Shown one piece after another: positions 2,058 through 59,580 of a stretch of DNA of 64,000 nt. The position numbers and the translations under genes are program-made. The stretch is from Octopus vulgaris (lineage: Eukaryota). Positions within the stretch are counted from its first letter, which is position 1. Every line of letters begins with the position of its first letter. Location of the stretch: the NCBI GenBank assembly GCA_951406725.2, contig OX597827.1, forward strand, positions 66,712,001 to 66,776,000, in the 5' to 3' direction. The notes under the pieces were generated by a model, which ran no database searches, was not told the DNA's origin, and saw nothing but the letters and a program-made list of their open reading frames with translations.

Positions 2058-2226
2058 AGGCGCACGAATGGCTGTGTGGTAAGTATCTTGCTTACCAGCC
2101 ATATGGTTCTGGGTTCAGTCCTACTGCCCACTACCTGAAGCAAGTGTATTTTTTTACTATAATTTTGGACTGACCAAAGCCTTATGAGTGATTTTGGTAA
2201 GGGAAACTAAAATATTCCCGTCGTAT
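2058..2226 (+). mobile_element. SINE family A (tRNA head + CORE-like domain), diverged 5' half
   Basis: tggctgtgtggtaag (A-box-like) and gggttcagtcct (B-box-like); matches copies at 13888 and 39565. Confidence 0.85.
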
Positions 2227-2257
2227 ATCTATATATATATATATAGATATATAGCTA

Positions 2258-2404
2258 TACGACGGGTTTCGTTCAGTTTCCGTCTACCTAATACACTCAC
2301 AAGGCTTTGGTAGGCCCGAGGCTACAATGGAAGACGCTCGGCCAAGGTGCCACGCAGTGGGACTGAACACGGAACCATGTGGTTGGTAAGCCACTCCTGC
2401 GCCT
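2258..2404 (-). mobile_element. SINE family A, 5' half, inverted relative to 2058-2226
   Basis: Reverse complement of the family A head and core (ccaaggtgccacgcagtgggactgaac...ccactcctgcgcct). Confidence 0.88.
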
Positions 2405-2899
2405 ATATATATACATGTGTGTGTGTGTGTGTGTGTGTTGGAATCAAGTGACATGTCTAGTGACAGTACCAAACAATGAATGCTCATAATTTTTTGTTCG
2501 TAGAGATTAAGCAATTCATTAAGTTTAGAACCATTCGTACGTTTTCGTCTAAGGCCGTGAGTTAGTGTCACGTGACAATATATTTTGCACCTAAAATGAA
2601 GGCCAATATGGTTGAGTGAACATAGTGAGAGAAAAGAATGGTCGGATAACATTACGTAGTGTGGCAAAATTAGTTTTGGCAGTTATAATATTTGACAAAC
2701 AGTGAGAGGAGGAATAAGTAATACGCTCTGAAATTAGAAAGATAGGTAGATAAAAGCTTTCTGCAATATATATTTTAATCGGTGTAGTGAGTGGTATTCC
2801 TGCCAAGGAAATTTGAGGCAGTGAGTTCGAAGACAAGTGAGGGCTATTCCTATCCAAAGAAATTAGGGGGAGCAATCCCCACCAGTCGCTAAATCCACA

Positions 2900-3068
2900 A
2901 TTTTTTTTTTTTTTTCATTCTCTCTTCATTTTCTCTTATTCCATTCTGTTGAAGAGCGTAGGCTCGAAACGTAAAAGACTTTCTCATCTTCCTTAGCGTC
3001 AAACTAATACACATGTTTGATGTTCATACACCTGTCTTCGTTTTTTGAATTTCTATAAATTTCAACTT
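2900..3068 (+). mobile_element. PLE pLTR-like fragment (family P1) with HHR-like motif at 2944-2978
   Basis: CTGTTGA-a-gagc(gtag)gctc-GAAAC-GTA; same family as 14948-15133 and 24218-24331. Confidence 0.6.
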
Positions 3069-3074
3069 CATATG

Positions 3075-3492
3075 CTCTTTTACTCTTTTACTCTTTTACT
3101 TGTTTCAGTCATTTGACTGCGACCATGCTGGAGCACCGCCTTTAGTCGAGCAAATCGACCCCGGGACTTATTCTTTGTAAGCCCAGTACTTATTCAATCG
3201 GTCGCTTTTGCCGAACCGCTAAGTGACGGGGACGTAAACACACCAGCATCGGTTGTCAAGCATTGCTAGGGGGACAAACACAGACACACAAACACATACA
3301 CACACATATATATATATATACATATATACGACAGGCTTCTTTCAGTTTCCGTCTACCAAATCCACTCACAAGGCATTGGTCGGCCCGGGGCTATAGCAGA
3401 AGACAATTGCCCAAGATGCCACGCAGTGGGACTGAACCCGGAACCATGTGGTTGGTTAGCAAGCTACTTACCACACAGCCACTCCTGCGCCT
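3075..3492 (-). mobile_element. SINE family A, full length, with internal (TA)n(TG)n and (GAGTAAAA)n tail
   Basis: Near-identical reverse complement of 13888-14316; head at 3492, tail repeats ctctttta at 3075-3100. Confidence 0.93.
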
Positions 3493-3515
3493 ATATATAT
3501 AATAATAATAATAAT

Positions 3516-4119
<604 letters not shown>

Positions 4120-4368
4120 TATATATATACATATATATATATAAGAAATATTGAATTTCTAAATCTCTCGTAGAGACATGTACGGTGGTGGGGCGATAGA
4201 ATGGTTGTATACTGTCAATCTAACAAGAACGTGACAATAGGGGGTACCTCACCGCTGTATAGCCCTAGGAAGCATCGAACGCCTCCTGATTGCTTTGACA
4301 CATTTTTCCCTGTGTCCTTATATACATATACGAAGGGGAGACAAACACCCCCGGCTGCCGAAGCTGCA

Positions 4369-4413
4369 TCTAGGGACACGTGTTTCAGGATCGTTGTCCT
4401 TCATCGGCCTAGA
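4369..4413 (-). ncRNA. Minimal type I hammerhead ribozyme motif
   Basis: Exact reverse complement of 4583-4627. Confidence 0.8.
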
Positions 4414-4582
4414 GTAGTAGACACCGGTCAGCTGGTGATATTTGTCTCGACTTCGTAATTGTATATATCTATAACTCAGTGAAGTCTATTCACTGATTAT
4501 CAAAATAAGAAATATTGAATTTCTAAATCTCTTGTAGAGACATGTACGGTGGTGTGGCGATAGAATGGTTGTATACTGCTAC

Positions 4583-4627
4583 TCTAGGCCGATGAAGGAC
4601 AACGATCCTGAAACACGTGTCCCTAGA
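4583..4627 (+). ncRNA. Minimal type I hammerhead ribozyme motif (core CCGAUGA, U4C)
   Basis: Helix I tctagg/cctaga; core CCGATGA; helix II agga-caacga-tcct; GAAAC-acgt-GTC with palindromic ACACGTGT helix III; predicted cut after C4621. Confidence 0.8.
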
Positions 4628-5401
4628 TGCAGCTTCGGCAGCCGGGGGTGTTTGTCTCCCCTTCGTATATGTATATAAGGACACAGGGAAAAATGTGTCA
4701 AAGCCATCAGGAGGCGTTCGATGCTTCCTGGGGCTATACAGCGGTGGTGTACCCCCTACTGTCACGTTCTTGTTAGATTGACAGTATACAACCATTATAT
4801 CTATATATATATAAAGAGAGAAGCAGAGATAGATAGATAGATAAATAGATAAATAGATAGATAGATGCATGTATGGCTACAGGACGTCATAGTAAACAAC
4901 ATGAAATACAAAGTACGAGACCATGGAATACGAACCTTTTTTTGGCGAACAGCGAAAGGCACAAATGGAAAGCAAGAAAAGCAACATAAAGAAGGATCCT
5001 ACAGTATACTCTCTATTTCCAGCAATTTGCGACAAAATATGCCTTCGACAAAGTAGTTGCTGCCGCAAAGTAAATTAAATAAGTTTTGGGGATTTGCGGA
5101 GGGTCAAAGTTAGTAACAGAAAACAGGACAGTGAAAACAAGCAGAAAGGGCAGCTAAGCCTAGACGAGGTGAGGTGGCAAACGCTGGAGGAACAAGCTTT
5201 TATATATATACATATGTATATACACATACACATATATATTTATATATATACACACACACATATAAAAATCCCTCCCTCTCTCTCTCACTATATATGTATA
5301 TATATATATATATACATATTTTTAGACATACATACATAGATATATATATACATACATAGATATATACATAGATATATATATGTATATATATATATATATA
5401 T

Positions 5402-14947: not shown

Positions 14948-15130
14948 ATCATTCGCCATGATAGATCATTAGCCACTACACATTTTTTATTTTCTCTCCT
15001 TGTTTCCCTCTGTGTTCTTTTCTGTGGAAGAGCATAGGCTCGAAACATTAAAGACTTTTTCACATACCGAGCGTTATACTAATACATACGTTTGCTGTCT
15101 GCACCAACTGTCTTCTTTTTTGTGAATTCT

Positions 15131-24714: not shown

Positions 24715-25098
24715 GGGTAAAATTAATTAATTAACTCGTAATCAATAATTTCACCAAGTAGAATTCGGCATGAAAAAGGTTCTTTTCTCGGTAAATTTAA
24801 GTAATATTTTATAATTAAGGCTCAGCAAAGATTTGCTTTACCACATACCGAAGTTTAGAAATAGCAGTCAGAAAACCTTAGCTATTTCCTCTATTTTAAA
24901 AGAGATTCCCGGACAAAAAAAAGTGCTCGAAAACAATCCACGCAATCTCTGTCTCCGTGGATTGTTTCCGAGCACTTTGTCTTTGTCCGGGAATCTCTTT
25001 TTAAAATAGAGGAAATAGCTAAGGTTCTCTGACTGCTATTTCTAAACTTCGGTATGTGGTAAAGCAAATCTTTGCTGAGCCCTAATTATAAAATATTA

Positions 25099-25102
<4 letters not shown>
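24715..25102 (-). mobile_element. Fold-back PLE-like relic (family P3): arms 24798-24942 and 24956-25102, 13-nt loop
   Basis: Near-perfect ~145-bp inverted repeat ending at (TA)n; 24715-24870 is homologous to the HHR-bearing element at 57165. Confidence 0.8.
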
Positions 25103-25144
<42 letters not shown>

Positions 25145-30903: not shown

Positions 30904-31988
30904 TAGATATGATTTCTCTAGCTTCTAACTTTCTAACCACACCAACCAAACCATTTATTTCTTCTTAATGAACGGTCAAAACAAACATTACTAAAGCCAG
31001 CTGGACAATAAAGTTCGATGGCGAAGCCGATCGAAAGTTTAATACGTCCTCTACGCCAACAAACCGTTTCAACATATGCCAAAAGGCAGAAGCAATTGAA
31101 TTACGGAAATCGGCGATGGTGTGTACAACAATTTCAACTGCTTCACCATATCCTGCGATTTAATCTGCCGTGCGTGAATACTGATTTCTAACTCTGGCGC
31201 GGGTCCACAATTTTGTAGACGTTGGATTTAGTTAATTGAATCAGCTCAAGGTACGATAAAGTTAATTATTTTATCGATAACAATGTGATATAATTCAACT
31301 ACATCTGGATTTTAACTTAGCATATTAATGGAAAGTACTAAATTCAACGACGATAATTGTTCGACGATCTTGAATTATTGCCATTCGATTACTCTTGAAA
31401 TACATAACACGTTTAAAAATTGAAAGCAGATAGTAACATAAAGGTACGTATGTGGACAAAATGATAATCGTTCCATCTTATGAAACCGAAATCACTAATT
31501 CTTATAAATATATTTCTATATAAATAAAACGAAATGTATGACACGTAATGTAAACTTTGTATGAGTTTAATCAACCACAATTAATAGATAGATTTGCATG
31601 GAACTTAACATCAAATAGTACTCAGCTTTCCGGGTGCTGCTGTCGGTGAACATTTTTCACACCGCATCAGCAAGTATCTTGTAGTTCATTTTAATAACAT
31701 ATTGTCGTGTGTATATTGTGCCAACAGCAAATTCTGAGCATTATATCATATACTGTTTTTCTCATATCTGTATCTAAATTCCCCTCACACAGAAATATTT
31801 TATCAATTGTTATGACAACAGAAAATCACTGATAGTATCCAGCGAAAGAGTCTAACGTAGTTTGCAATATACAACAACAGATACTCAAACACTTCGTTTC
31901 CATTCATGCATAATCTTCAAGCTTAAATAGGTGGGTATTAGGTTTCACGTTTGCTTGATGCTGCATAGATTGTCAGGTAGACCCCAAA

Positions 31989-32041
31989 TCACGTTCCCTG
32001 TTAGTGGGTGAACAATCCAACGCTTTGCAAAATCTGCTTTG

Positions 32042-32074
<33 letters not shown>

Positions 32075-32134
32075 GTGACGTCGCTGTGAACACTTGGCCG
32101 CCACAAGCAAGTTAACCCTGCGGTAACTTTTCTG
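31989..32134 (-). pseudogene. 28S rRNA fragment (domain V region), diverged
   Basis: tcacgttccctgttagtgggtgaacaatccaacgct...aatgataggaagagccgacatcgaaggatcaa...cttggccgccacaagc...ggtaacttttctg matches the antisense of conserved eukaryotic LSU rRNA, with substitutions and a small deletion. Confidence 0.93.
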
Positions 32135-32283
32135 TGAAATAACTTCGTAAATATAAGCTTTTCTCGAAAACGCTAAGAGTAAAAGATATTTTATATGACA
32201 TATTCTACCACTGTCCGAAGTTTGAAAGGGTTTAGTTACAAAAAAAATATTTTTTAAATCTGTCGGTCAAAATGTAAAGATCC
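32134..32283. mobile_element. Terminal fragment of the 8055-family DNA element
   Basis: Reverse complement of 8060-8200 (gtgaaataacttcgtaaatataag...gtccgaagtttgaaag.gtttagttacaaaaaa). Confidence 0.8.
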
Positions 32284-33707: not shown

Positions 33708-34044
33708 AACAATTGCAGCGTGGAAGATGTTTGTAAGCCATTTAAGAAACACACAAAAGCCGTTCGATTCACTTCAACAGTTAAGTTTAATTTGTCAAAA
33801 TATTTTTACGTCGCTTTAAGACCGCGACCTGTTCAATGACAAAAATCCGTGCTGCATCTCCTTTGTCAGTGATCAGGTCGCGGTCTTAAAGCGACGAAAA
33901 TATTTTGACAAATTAAATTCAGAAGGGAATCGAACGGCTTTTGTGTGTTTCTTAAATGGCTTAACAAACACCTTCCACGCTGCAATTGTTTTCGTTTCAG
34001 CACACCATCTCAGATCAAATCACTTGCTATGCAGATACATCTCC
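33708..34044 (+). mobile_element. Fold-back PLE-like relic (family P4): arms 33708-33843 and 33862-33990, right arm extends to 34044
   Basis: ~130-bp inverted repeat next to a long (TA)n; each arm begins with an HHR fold. Confidence 0.82.
33862..33912 (+). ncRNA. Type I hammerhead fold with swapped G3:C8 core (GUGAUCA)
   Basis: Helix I tttgtca/tgacaaa; core GTGATCA-g; helix II gtcgc-ggtcttaaa-gcgac; GAAA-ATAT-TT with palindromic helix III; predicted cut after 33905. Confidence 0.7.
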
Positions 34045-35292: not shown

Positions 35293-35394
35293 GGAGTAAA
35301 CACATAAATGTGAAACAAGGTGGAAAAAAGAGTACTCAAATACCAGTGGTAGAGTAATATGCTTTATTTAAAGCAGCAGAAAATTCAAAAAAAT

Positions 35395-35432
35395 CTGTTA
35401 CTCTGAGTTTCTCGTTGCCGTTCATCAGACAG
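35395..35432 (-). ncRNA. Minimal type I hammerhead ribozyme motif (CUGAUGA)
   Basis: Minus strand: ctgt-CTGATGA-acg(gcaa)cga-GAAAC-tcaga-GTA-acag. Confidence 0.8.
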
Positions 35433-35448
35433 TTTTTTTTAGAAAAAA

Positions 35449-35486
35449 CTGTCTGACGAACGGCAACGAGAAACTCAGAGTAACAG
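35449..35486 (+). ncRNA. Minimal type I hammerhead ribozyme motif (CUGACGA)
   Basis: ctgt-CTGACGA-acg(gcaa)cga-GAAAC-tcaga-GTA-acag; helix III ACTC/GAGT; predicted cut after A35482. Confidence 0.8.
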
Positions 35487-35518
35487 ATTTTGTTGAATTT
35501 TCTGCTGCTTTAAATAAA

Positions 35519-35580
<62 letters not shown>

Positions 35581-39503: not shown

Positions 39504-39564
<61 letters not shown>

Positions 39565-39565
<1 letters not shown>

Positions 39566-39720
39566 AGGCGTAGGTGTGGCTGTATTGTAAGTAGGTTACC
39601 ACATGGTTTCGAGTTCAGTTCCAATGAGTGGCACTTTGGGCAAGTGTCTTCTACTATAGCCTCGGGCTTACCAAAGCCTTGTGAGCGGATTTGATAAACG
39701 GAAACTGAAAGAAGCCCGTC

Positions 39721-39762
<42 letters not shown>

Positions 39763-40161
39763 TCTTTTACTTGTTTCAGTCATTTGACTGCGGCCATGCT
39801 GGAGCACCGCCTTTAATCGAGCAACTCGACCCCGGGACTTATTCTTTTGTAAGCCCAGTACTTTTTCTATCGGTCTCTTTCTCCGAGGGACATAAACACA
39901 CCAGCATCGGTTGTCAAGCAATGCTAGGGGGACAAACACAGACACACAAACACACACATGCATATATATATATATATATATACATATATACGACGGGCTT
40001 CTTTTCAGTTTCCGTCTACCAAATCCACTCACAAGGCTTTGGTCGGCCCGATGCTATAGTAGAAGACACTTGCCCAAGGTGCCACGCAGTGGGACTGAAC
40101 CCGGAACCATGGGGTTGGTAAACAAGCTACTTACCACATAGCCACACCTGCGCCTATATAA

Positions 40162-40213
<52 letters not shown>

Positions 40214-45009: not shown

Positions 45010-45320
45010 CATATTCTGTTCTGCCTGGGGAGAGTCATTCTCTTTTAGTACTTATTATTTAACACACTCACCGGTAAAATTTCCACTTATTTCGTCTTTT
45101 TATTTCCATAAAATTTTTGTTGCGTCGTGCAACCTTTTCAATACTCTTTTACTAAAAGATTATAGGAAAATAAAAAGACAAAATAAGTGGAAATTTTACC
45201 GGTAAGTGTGTTAAATAATAAAGTACTAAAAGAGAATGACTCTCCCCAGACACAACAGAATATGCTTCAACACACGAACTCACATAAATAATCTTGCAAA
45301 CCGAATCCAAAAACGAAATA
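45010..45320. mobile_element. Fold-back PLE-like relic (family P6): arms 45010-45107 and 45164-45264; U3:A8 HHR-like fold at 45108-45144 (-)
   Basis: ~100-bp inverted repeat ending at (TA)n; minus strand gta-TTGAAAA-g-gttgc(acgac)gcaac-AAAAATTT-tat. Confidence 0.75.
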
Positions 45321-45323
45321 TAC

Positions 45324-45422
<99 letters not shown>

Positions 45423-59399: not shown

Positions 59400-59442
<43 letters not shown>

Positions 59443-59443
<1 letters not shown>

Positions 59444-59580
59444 TGTTGTGTCTCGGGAGAGTTATTTTCTTTTTGTGCCTTATAATTCAACACACACCCG
59501 TAAAATTTTCACCTATTTCTTATTTTTGCTTTCCTAAGATTTTCGTTGCGTCTTGTAACGTTTTTAATAGTCTTGACTAT
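59443..59580 (-). mobile_element. Family P6 fragment with U3:A8 HHR-like fold (59534-59570) and 5' mini-hairpin
   Basis: Homologous to 45015-45144; minus strand cta-TTAAAAA-c-gttac(aagac)gcaac-GAAAATCT-tag; hairpin atagtc-tt-gactat at 59567-59580. Confidence 0.65.

What the first reader, a model, noticed from the sequence alone, without database searches (positions are those of the whole stretch)
45108..45144. Second compensatory core: U3:A8 hammerhead (UUGAAAA) reconstructed from two copies
Seen: 45108-45144(-) gta-TTGAAAA-g-gttgc/gcaac-AAAAATTT-tat and 59534-59570(-) cta-TTAAAAA-c-gttac/gcaac-GAAAATCT-tag. Each copy has different lesions (G12A in one; G5A, U16.1C and a helix II mismatch in the other). 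Combining them gives cta-UUGAAAA-N-guugc..gcaac-GAAA-AU-UU-uag, an intact minimal HHR with a U3:A8 pair. With the C:G families and P4 (G:C), three of the four Watson-Crick options at 3:8 would occur in one window. Helix I is only 3 bp and the sequence is A-rich, so this case is weaker than P4.
Basis: inference. Interest (0 to 1): 0.72.

Follow-up and report, generated by a model that had tools for sequence, protein, structure and literature searches.

The report
Penelope hammerhead with drifting core pair
These are two decayed copies of a hammerhead-shaped RNA motif, predicted to cut itself slowly, at the end of an abundant Penelope-like jumping gene; its U-A core pair is a published variant, but older generations of the element carry mismatched pairs at that spot, so an exact pair is likely not needed for the element to spread.

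Summary
Observation confirmed. Both window copies (45108-45144 and 59534-59570, minus strand) are decayed ends of one abundant Penelope-like element (PLE) with RT, CX4CX2C linker and C-terminal GIY-YIG. In 38 copies picked by coding sequence: U3 34, G5 36, A8 36, G12 38; 24 have all 11 core bases. Two near-full elements carry it on both sides of the ORF.

U3:A8 is not new. It is reported in Schistosoma PLE hammerheads with the same UUGAAAA core, 3-bp helix I and U17 (PMC4209133), and in other natural hammerheads (PMC3088659).

The added value is the lineage history. Dated subfamilies read C3·A8 (oldest, 14/19), U3:A8 (22/27), U3•G8, then U3:A8 again. The other core bases and helix II keep the same majority letters, and helices I and III change compensatorily. 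So masters with a mismatch or wobble at 3:8 likely transposed.

A G3:C8 family is real (24/27). I found no intact C3:G8 copy in the window. Cleavage is untested. This scan already noted U3:A8 in this genome and wobble walks in other genomes. Verdict: new member of a known kind.

The parts
45108..45144 (-). Decayed minimal type I hammerhead motif, copy 1. Helix I 45144-45142 with 45110-45108; core U3-A9 45141-45135; bulged G 45134; helix II 45133-45129 with 45123-45119; G12(A here)-A15.1 45118-45115; U16.1 45112; U17 45111; predicted cut between 45111 and 45110
45010..45148 (-). 5'-truncated 3' end (pseudo-LTR) of the PLE, direct arm. It starts just upstream of the hammerhead and ends at the family's first 3' end point, about 101 nt after the predicted cut
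   Evidence: 88.6% to L033; end pile-up at +99 to +101
45156..45326 (+). Inverted 5'-truncated arm of the same element. It carries the ~60-nt tail (the start of the ORF in tandem copies) and runs into (TA)n; it holds only the last bases of the hammerhead
   Evidence: tail continues into the ORF in L096 and L099-L127
45318..45427 (.). (TA)n microsatellite at the insertion end
59534..59570 (-). Decayed hammerhead motif, copy 2 (G5A, 10.4 mismatch, U16.1C)
59438..59578 (-). Solo 5'-truncated pseudo-LTR end of the same family, ending in (TA)21 at 59401-59442
   Evidence: 88.1% to L033

Best explanation
The two window copies are decayed, 5'-truncated ends of an abundant Penelope-like retrotransposon whose pseudo-LTR carries a minimal type I hammerhead motif with U3:A8; in the parent element this motif likely cuts the RNA slowly, as a dimer or with help from the element's protein. 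Shown: the family, the RT-linker-GIY-YIG ORF, the motif on both sides of the ORF, inverted-plus-direct insertions into (TA)n, and two 3' end points. Also shown: subfamilies whose majority at 3:8 is C·A, U:A, U•G and U:A. Inferred: that order in time; that each subfamily's master transposed with that pair; and that position 3:8 here only needs a pyrimidine-purine apposition while the rest of the fold is kept by selection. Cleavage itself was not tested.
For: Family and element. L154 and L157 hold same-strand motifs about 4.3-4.4 kb apart around the ORF. Core majority intact: 24 of 38 coding-selected and 61 of 91 total copies keep all 11 core bases. An intact natural copy folds into helices I and II as its minimum-energy structure (P helix I 0.74-0.77, helix II >0.99). 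Helix III is the palindrome AAUU, as described for dimer-type motifs. Across stages the majority at U4, G5, A6, A9, G12, A13, A14, A15.1, U16.1 and the 5-bp helix II stem does not change. Helix I goes UCA/UGA to CCA/UGG (few copies: L285, L291) to CUA/UAG, and 15.2:16.2 goes G:C to A:U. A U3:A8 motif with the same core heptamer, 3-bp helix I and U17 is in the PMC4209133 supplement. An anole PLE hammerhead cleaves only with the element's protein (PMC11167929).
Against: No cleavage data. In the longer context helix I is poorly populated (P about 0.26), and an 8-bp A/U duplex that buries A13, A14 and U17 is 4.4 kcal/mol more stable than the 4-bp active helix III in a dimer. [quoted passage not shown] Copies do not pile up at the predicted cut: 2 of 222 start there, though the sample is biased towards hammerhead-containing copies. 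Ribozyme mutants did not affect insertion in vitro. The two non-Watson-Crick stages could equally mean that cleavage does not matter.
Confidence: 0.62

Rival explanations
1. The motif is kept as a structure (protein-binding or folding element of the pseudo-LTR) but no longer needs to cut; 3:8 drifts because catalysis is dispensable for this lineage.
For: Two stages have C·A or U•G, which equal single core mutants. Ribozyme mutants do not affect PLE insertion in vitro and no reads end at the cut in anole. No start pile-up at the cut here. Craig et al. raise that such motifs may simply parasitise PLEs.
Against: G12, A13, A14, G5 and A6 keep the same majority letters through all stages while the flanks diverge widely. 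3:8 only samples pyrimidine-purine states and returns to U:A. Helices I and III are kept by double changes.
Confidence: 0.28
2. The C·A and U•G stages are artefacts: short-lived defective masters mobilised in trans by intact elements, or my sampling and alignment of old copies.
For: Samples are small and partly pattern-selected: 16 U•G-type copies, 19 C·A-clade copies. Only 4 U•G-grade copies have linked EN sequence. The AU test is marginal (p=0.024) and the group was named after seeing the tree. No EN-linked tree position for the C·A clade.
Against: With 3 and 8 left free, 47 of 100 listed AAGAA-loop copies are U•G and they share several diagnostic flank changes. N3 splits by clade 17 C:1 U versus 4 C:23 U (Fisher p=1.6e-7, columns 3 and 8 left out of the tree). 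U•G copies carry their own EN sequences basal to the young U:A copies. Neither position is a CpG.
Confidence: 0.15
3. The match is a chance hammerhead look-alike in A-rich repeat DNA.
For: Helix I is 3 bp and the sequence is A-rich. Rfam lists no hammerhead among the top 150 of 335 window matches (185 lower rows not shown).
Against: 0 hits in shuffles. Position in the pseudo-LTR of a PLE. Bulge before helix II, G10.1:C11.1 and palindromic helix III are as published. Compensatory changes between stages.
Confidence: 0.02

Closest known systems
U3-A8 minimal hammerheads in pLTRs of Schistosoma mansoni Cercyon PLEs (Cervera and De la Pena 2014, PMC4209133; parts 1-2 of 4 of the text and three supplement passages read)
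   Same: Type I, U3-A8, bulge between 9 and 10.1, G10.1-C11.1, 2-nt palindromic helix III. The entry S. mansoni(4) has the same UUGAAAA core, a 3-bp helix I and U17. About 1,300 hits were reported there.
   Different: Different host and PLE lineage; 5-bp helix II. The passages read describe no C·A or U•G subfamilies and no time order.
Natural U3/A8 hammerheads (Perreault et al. 2011, PMC3088659; section 8 and passages read)
   Same: Natural covariation of C3:G8 to U3:A8, stated there to be active in vitro.
   Different: Not presented as PLE ends in the section read; no non-Watson-Crick 3:8 variants are named in that section (figures and supplements S6/S7 not seen).
C-terminal-EN PLEs with a CX2-5CxxC linker, i.e. 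Neptune or Nematis (Craig et al. 2021, PMC8557442; passages read)
   Same: RT then CX4CX2C linker then GIY-YIG; partial tandems; inverted 5'-truncated copy; tail at one end; (TA)n targets.
   Different: Tail is about 56-63 nt against the 30-40 bp described. The DKG motif reads DKSG. Clade not placed on a reference tree.
Poseidon element PAc of Anolis (PMC11167929; passages read)
   Same: pLTR hammerhead; two 3' end points that define a tail.
   Different: Canonical C3:G8. Its cut lies inside the ORF start, whereas here the motif is about 100 nt before the first 3' end point.

Membership tests
Minimal type I hammerhead of metazoan PLEs | Core N3-U4-G5-A6-N7-N8-A9 ... G12-A13-A14-A15.1 ... U16.1-H17 with 3:8 paired | tested here: met
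   Majority in 38 coding-selected and 91 total copies; not met by either window copy alone
Minimal type I hammerhead of metazoan PLEs | Helix II with G10.1:C11.1 and one bulged base after A9 | tested here: met
   G10.1 87/91, C11.1 76/91 (CpG), bulged G 87/91; helix II cells paired 98.3%
Minimal type I hammerhead of metazoan PLEs | Short open helix I | tested here: met
   3 bp CUA/UAG; P 0.74-0.77 alone, 0.26 in context; kept by double changes between stages
Minimal type I hammerhead of metazoan PLEs | Palindromic, near-absent helix III (dimer type) | tested here: met
   A15.1-A-U-U16.1; a competing 8-bp register is more stable
Minimal type I hammerhead of metazoan PLEs | Located in both pLTRs flanking the ORF | tested here: met
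   2 of 5 long loci examined have it on both sides of a near-full ORF (L154, L157); L155 has two around a deleted ORF; L153 and L156 show only the upstream one
Minimal type I hammerhead of metazoan PLEs | Site-specific self-cleavage after H17 | not testable with these tools
   Needs an assay; only contigs, no raw RNA reads, were offered
EN+ Penelope-like elements | RT followed by C-terminal GIY-YIG | tested here: met
   GIY-YIG PF01541 above cutoff; YVDD motif upstream in the same frame. Pfam gave no RT hit on the fragments; the nearest named protein is labelled reverse transcriptase domain-containing
EN+ Penelope-like elements | Partial tandems, inverted 5'-truncated copy, tail at one end | tested here: met
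Neptune/Nematis PLEs | CX2-5CxxC linker before the EN | tested here: met
   C-x4-C-x2-C in L061, L081 and others
Neptune/Nematis PLEs | RT phylogeny with reference elements | not tested
   No reference PLE set on hand; Neptune versus Nematis is left open

The most novel reading that the evidence does not exclude
One PLE lineage has left a dated fossil series in which the hammerhead 3:8 pair walked C·A, U:A, U•G, U:A (probably from C:G) while every other catalytic base stayed fixed. Masters with a mismatch or wobble each amplified, so in PLE hammerheads 3:8 is a pyrimidine-purine slot and not an obligatory Watson-Crick pair. The series, plus the G3:C8 family in the same genome, is a ready natural panel to test whether PLEs need self-cleavage.
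Probability: 0.55. Interest if true: 0.55.

Novelty: new member of a known kind. Interest (0 to 1): 0.32.

Why it matters
The U3:A8 motif alone is ordinary. The role of hammerheads in endonuclease-bearing PLEs is stated to be unclear (PMC8557442), and one in vitro study found it dispensable for insertion (PMC11167929). A single lineage whose successive generations carry C·A, U:A, U•G and U:A gives matched natural variants. If all cleave, the 3:8 rule is looser than mutant studies suggest. If the mismatched ones do not, PLEs spread without cleavage for long periods. It also shows that CUGANGA descriptors miss whole high-copy families.

Tried and rejected
Rfam scan of the window: no hammerhead among the 150 rows shown of 335.

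Core-versus-flank conservation within the family: 401/418 against 3996/4451, rank test p=0.005. Rejected as evidence of selection, because copies decay neutrally and flanks hold indel-prone A runs and subfamily sites.

Covariation count on 36 hand-picked rows: it exceeds shuffles (0/500) but rests on about six related groups, and the 3:8 double change comes only from the G:C family. Helix I could not be counted, because MAFFT misaligned it across helix III lengths. R-scape is not available.

A C3:G8 ancestor was sought and not shown. C:G is 5 of 53 G8 copies and 3 of 19 in the oldest clade, within what single mutations could give; only 18 exact C3:G8 matches with this helix II exist genome-wide.

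Link of the G3:C8 family to a PLE ORF: no tblastn hit in its 25 loci.

Expression: no RNA holder listed. Contigs of four runs (organisms A, C, D, E) hold the family with no other letter at 4% or more at positions 3 or 8.

Rows dropped: 14 segmental-duplicate loci collapsed to one; L268 (duplicate), L269 (misaligned) and L260 (between clades) left out of clade counts; L279 (spurious motif match) left out of the AU test. The 'mid' group is mixed (it includes old-type L118, L121, L226).

Papers not held: Lunse 2017 (PMC5785218), Przybilski and Hammann 2007 (PMC1986816), Nelson and Uhlenbeck 2008 (PMC2151028, PMC2271363). They may already describe non-Watson-Crick 3:8 variants or their rates.

Full report
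Observation. Both strings stand at the stated places with the stated lesions. They are two copies of one repeat (79% over 145 nt). The 45 kb copy is the direct arm (45148-45010, minus) of a fold-back insertion whose inverted arm (45156-45326) carries a tail and ends in (TA)n; the 59 kb copy is a solo end next to (TA)21. The genome G000 has 2.8 Gb; the DNA search found 2,247 candidates and scored 40.

Family consensus. A 37-nt pattern with positions 3 and 8 free has 302 exact matches (reversed control 0); 96 of the 100 listed are U3:A8 and 4 are C3·A8. I collected 98 distinct copies covering the motif, 91 after collapsing segmental duplicates. Of these, 38 were picked by coding sequence, independently of the motif. 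In those 38: U3 34, U4 36, G5 36, A6 38, A8 36, A9 36, G12 38, A13 38, A14 37, A15.1 36, U16.1 36, U17 35; 24 keep all 11 core bases (61 of 91 overall). G12A recurs in 10 of 91 copies because C11.1-G12 is a CpG. A strict descriptor found 66 motifs in the fetched loci and none in two shuffles. Contigs from four coded organisms hold the family with no listed variant at 3 or 8.

Parent element. About 600-700 nt upstream of the motif ends an ORF with a YVDD motif, a C-x4-C-x2-C linker and a GIY-YIG domain. The tail beyond the pseudo-LTR continues into the ORF start in tandem copies. L154 and L157 have the motif on the same strand on both sides of the ORF, about 4.3-4.4 kb apart (2 of 5 long loci). 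3' ends pile up near +101 and +157 to +164 from the predicted cut; only 2 of 222 copies start at the cut. This is the layout given for PLEs with a Neptune/Nematis-type linker (PMC8557442 passages); the clade was not placed on a tree. The nearest named protein is an Octopus vulgaris predicted protein at 60% identity.

Folding. An intact copy folds into helix I (3 bp) and helix II (5 bp) as its minimum-energy structure. With flanks, a 7-bp distal stem closes the domain and helix I falls to P about 0.26. In a dimer the 8-bp A/U register is 4.4 kcal/mol more stable than the 4-bp active helix III. Any cleavage is therefore expected to be slow or assisted (inference).

What is known. Cervera and De la Pena report U3-A8 minimal hammerheads in Schistosoma Cercyon PLEs, about 1,300 hits, and low activity of such motifs even as dimers (PMC4209133, parts 1-2 of 4). 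Their supplementary alignment has an entry with UUGAAAA, a 3-bp helix I and U17 (file 1 not searchable). Perreault et al. report natural U3/A8 covariation (PMC3088659 section 8). In an anole PLE, C3G and G8C kill cleavage, the double mutant partly restores it, cleavage needs the protein, and mutants do not affect insertion in vitro (PMC11167929 passages). In a mutational scan of a type III hammerhead only the G:C swap rescued this pair (PMC9901934 passages). I also saw passages of PMC3884650, PMC7151607 and PMC6765202 and part 1 of 5 of bioRxiv 2026.07.22.740005. Searches for natural U3-G8 or C3-A8 and for subfamily histories gave nothing relevant in the listings, but four key papers were not held, so absence from print is not established.

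Lineage history, U•G stage. Freeing position 8 showed many U3•G8 copies with a different helix II loop. With 3 and 8 both free and that loop fixed, the 100 listed of 103 matches are 47 U•G, 41 U:A, 5 C:G, 3 C·A and 4 other (counted by hand). The G8 copies share several flank changes that most U:A ones lack. A pseudo-LTR tree without columns 3 and 8 gives a ladder from U•G copies with long tips through intermediate U:A to young U:A. Mean distance to own majority is 0.094 (16 copies), 0.117 (13, a mixed group) and 0.052 (106) (part of this sample was selected on 3 or 8).

Lineage history, older stages. An older related family (RT/EN fragments about 60% identical in three loci) has the same helix II stem, helix I GUCA/UGAC and a 4-nt helix III insert. 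It splits into a clade with C3·A8 (14 of 19; 3 C:G; distance 0.19) and a clade with U3:A8 (22 of 27; distance 0.14); N3 by clade p=1.6e-7. An independent strict pattern gave 19 U:A, 7 C·A, 3 U•G, 1 C:G and 1 U·U of 31 (counted by hand). On an EN tree of 33 copies the older U:A family is sister to our lineage, in which four copies (3 U•G, 1 U·C) are basal to all younger U:A copies. Holding all U:A-type rows together is rejected weakly (p-AU 0.024, group named after seeing the tree). Two transitional copies, L285 and L291, have U:A with CCA before the core and UGG after it. The inferred order is C·A, U:A, U•G, U:A; a C:G ancestor is assumed from the canonical core and not shown. Through all stages the other nine core bases and helix II keep the same majority letters (G12 only 11 of 19 in the oldest clade, CpG decay).

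Mechanism. Shown: a retrotransposon end with a conserved hammerhead fold, left as truncated and inverted dead copies in (TA)n. Inferred: in the master transcript two motifs pair through AAUU, or one is held by the element's protein, and cut after U17; selection keeps the fold but tolerates any pyrimidine-purine state at 3:8. That A+·C and G•U wobbles are near-isosteric, and that G8 acts through its 2'-OH, is recalled and comes from no call. The main rival is that cleavage is dispensable and the fold is kept for another use.

The G3:C8 motif at 33862-33912 is intact and 24 of 27 descriptor hits of its family are G:C with U17. I found no intact C3:G8 motif in the window.

Earlier scan notes, seen only after this analysis: U3:A8 was already judged ordinary elsewhere in this genome (e1-9572864, e1-9529720), and mismatched or wobble stages were noted in other genomes (e1-9570153, e1-8645517). 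They are unchecked notes and add no support.

Verdict. Real, correctly read, and a known variant in a known setting: new member of a known kind, interest 0.32. The dated C·A, U:A, U•G, U:A series is the part worth following.

Noticed in passing
window 33708-33990, core 33862-33912 (+); loci L128-L152: Fold-back repeat family (527 candidates) whose minimal hammerhead has G3:C8, 7-bp helix I and U17; 24 of 27 descriptor hits are G:C. The one listing for 'G3-C8' concerns an engineered variant. No ORF link found.
   Followed up: partly
L033:1511-1517 with about L033:1647-1653: A 7-bp stem (AGAGUCA with UGACUCU) plus 2 bp closes the hammerhead domain about 100 nt downstream in both young and U•G copies; its 5' strand resembles the old helix I strand, displaced by 6-8 nt.
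   Followed up: partly
all non-C:G families seen (window 45111, and the 33862-33912 motif): N17 is U in every stage and in the G3:C8 family, which would avoid a Watson-Crick 3-17 mispair (cf. the C3-G17 trap in PMC3884650).
   Followed up: no
window 15018-15053 (+): Minimal hammerhead-like motif with C3:G8 and an A6G lesion, next to (TA)n; family not checked.
   Followed up: no
window 4195-4801: Inverted repeat with 226-nt arms at 97% and a 155-nt spacer that repeats part of one flank; a young fold-back insertion between (TA)n tracts.
   Followed up: no
window 24792-25108, 35357-35524, 3591-4011: Further fold-back elements next to microsatellites; two show partial hammerhead-like pieces (GCUC-GAAA; CUGACGA on the minus strand) without a full motif.
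   Followed up: no
window 2090-2391 and 39544-40177: Head-to-head pairs of one ~200-nt repeat separated by (TA)n; SINE-like (label recalled, not tested).
   Followed up: no
window 31959-32230 (-): Fragment of large-subunit rRNA (Rfam 73.7 bits), apparently a dispersed pseudogene piece.
   Followed up: no
G000:C1 about 206.65-206.85 Mb and C1 8.65 Mb (L061-L071): At least eight copies of a larger duplicated segment that contains one truncated copy of this PLE.
   Followed up: partly
L062 (reverse strand 2197-5331): Open 1045-aa endonuclease-RT LINE-type frame lying between two pieces of a transposase-like frame (labels from motifs, recalled).
   Followed up: no
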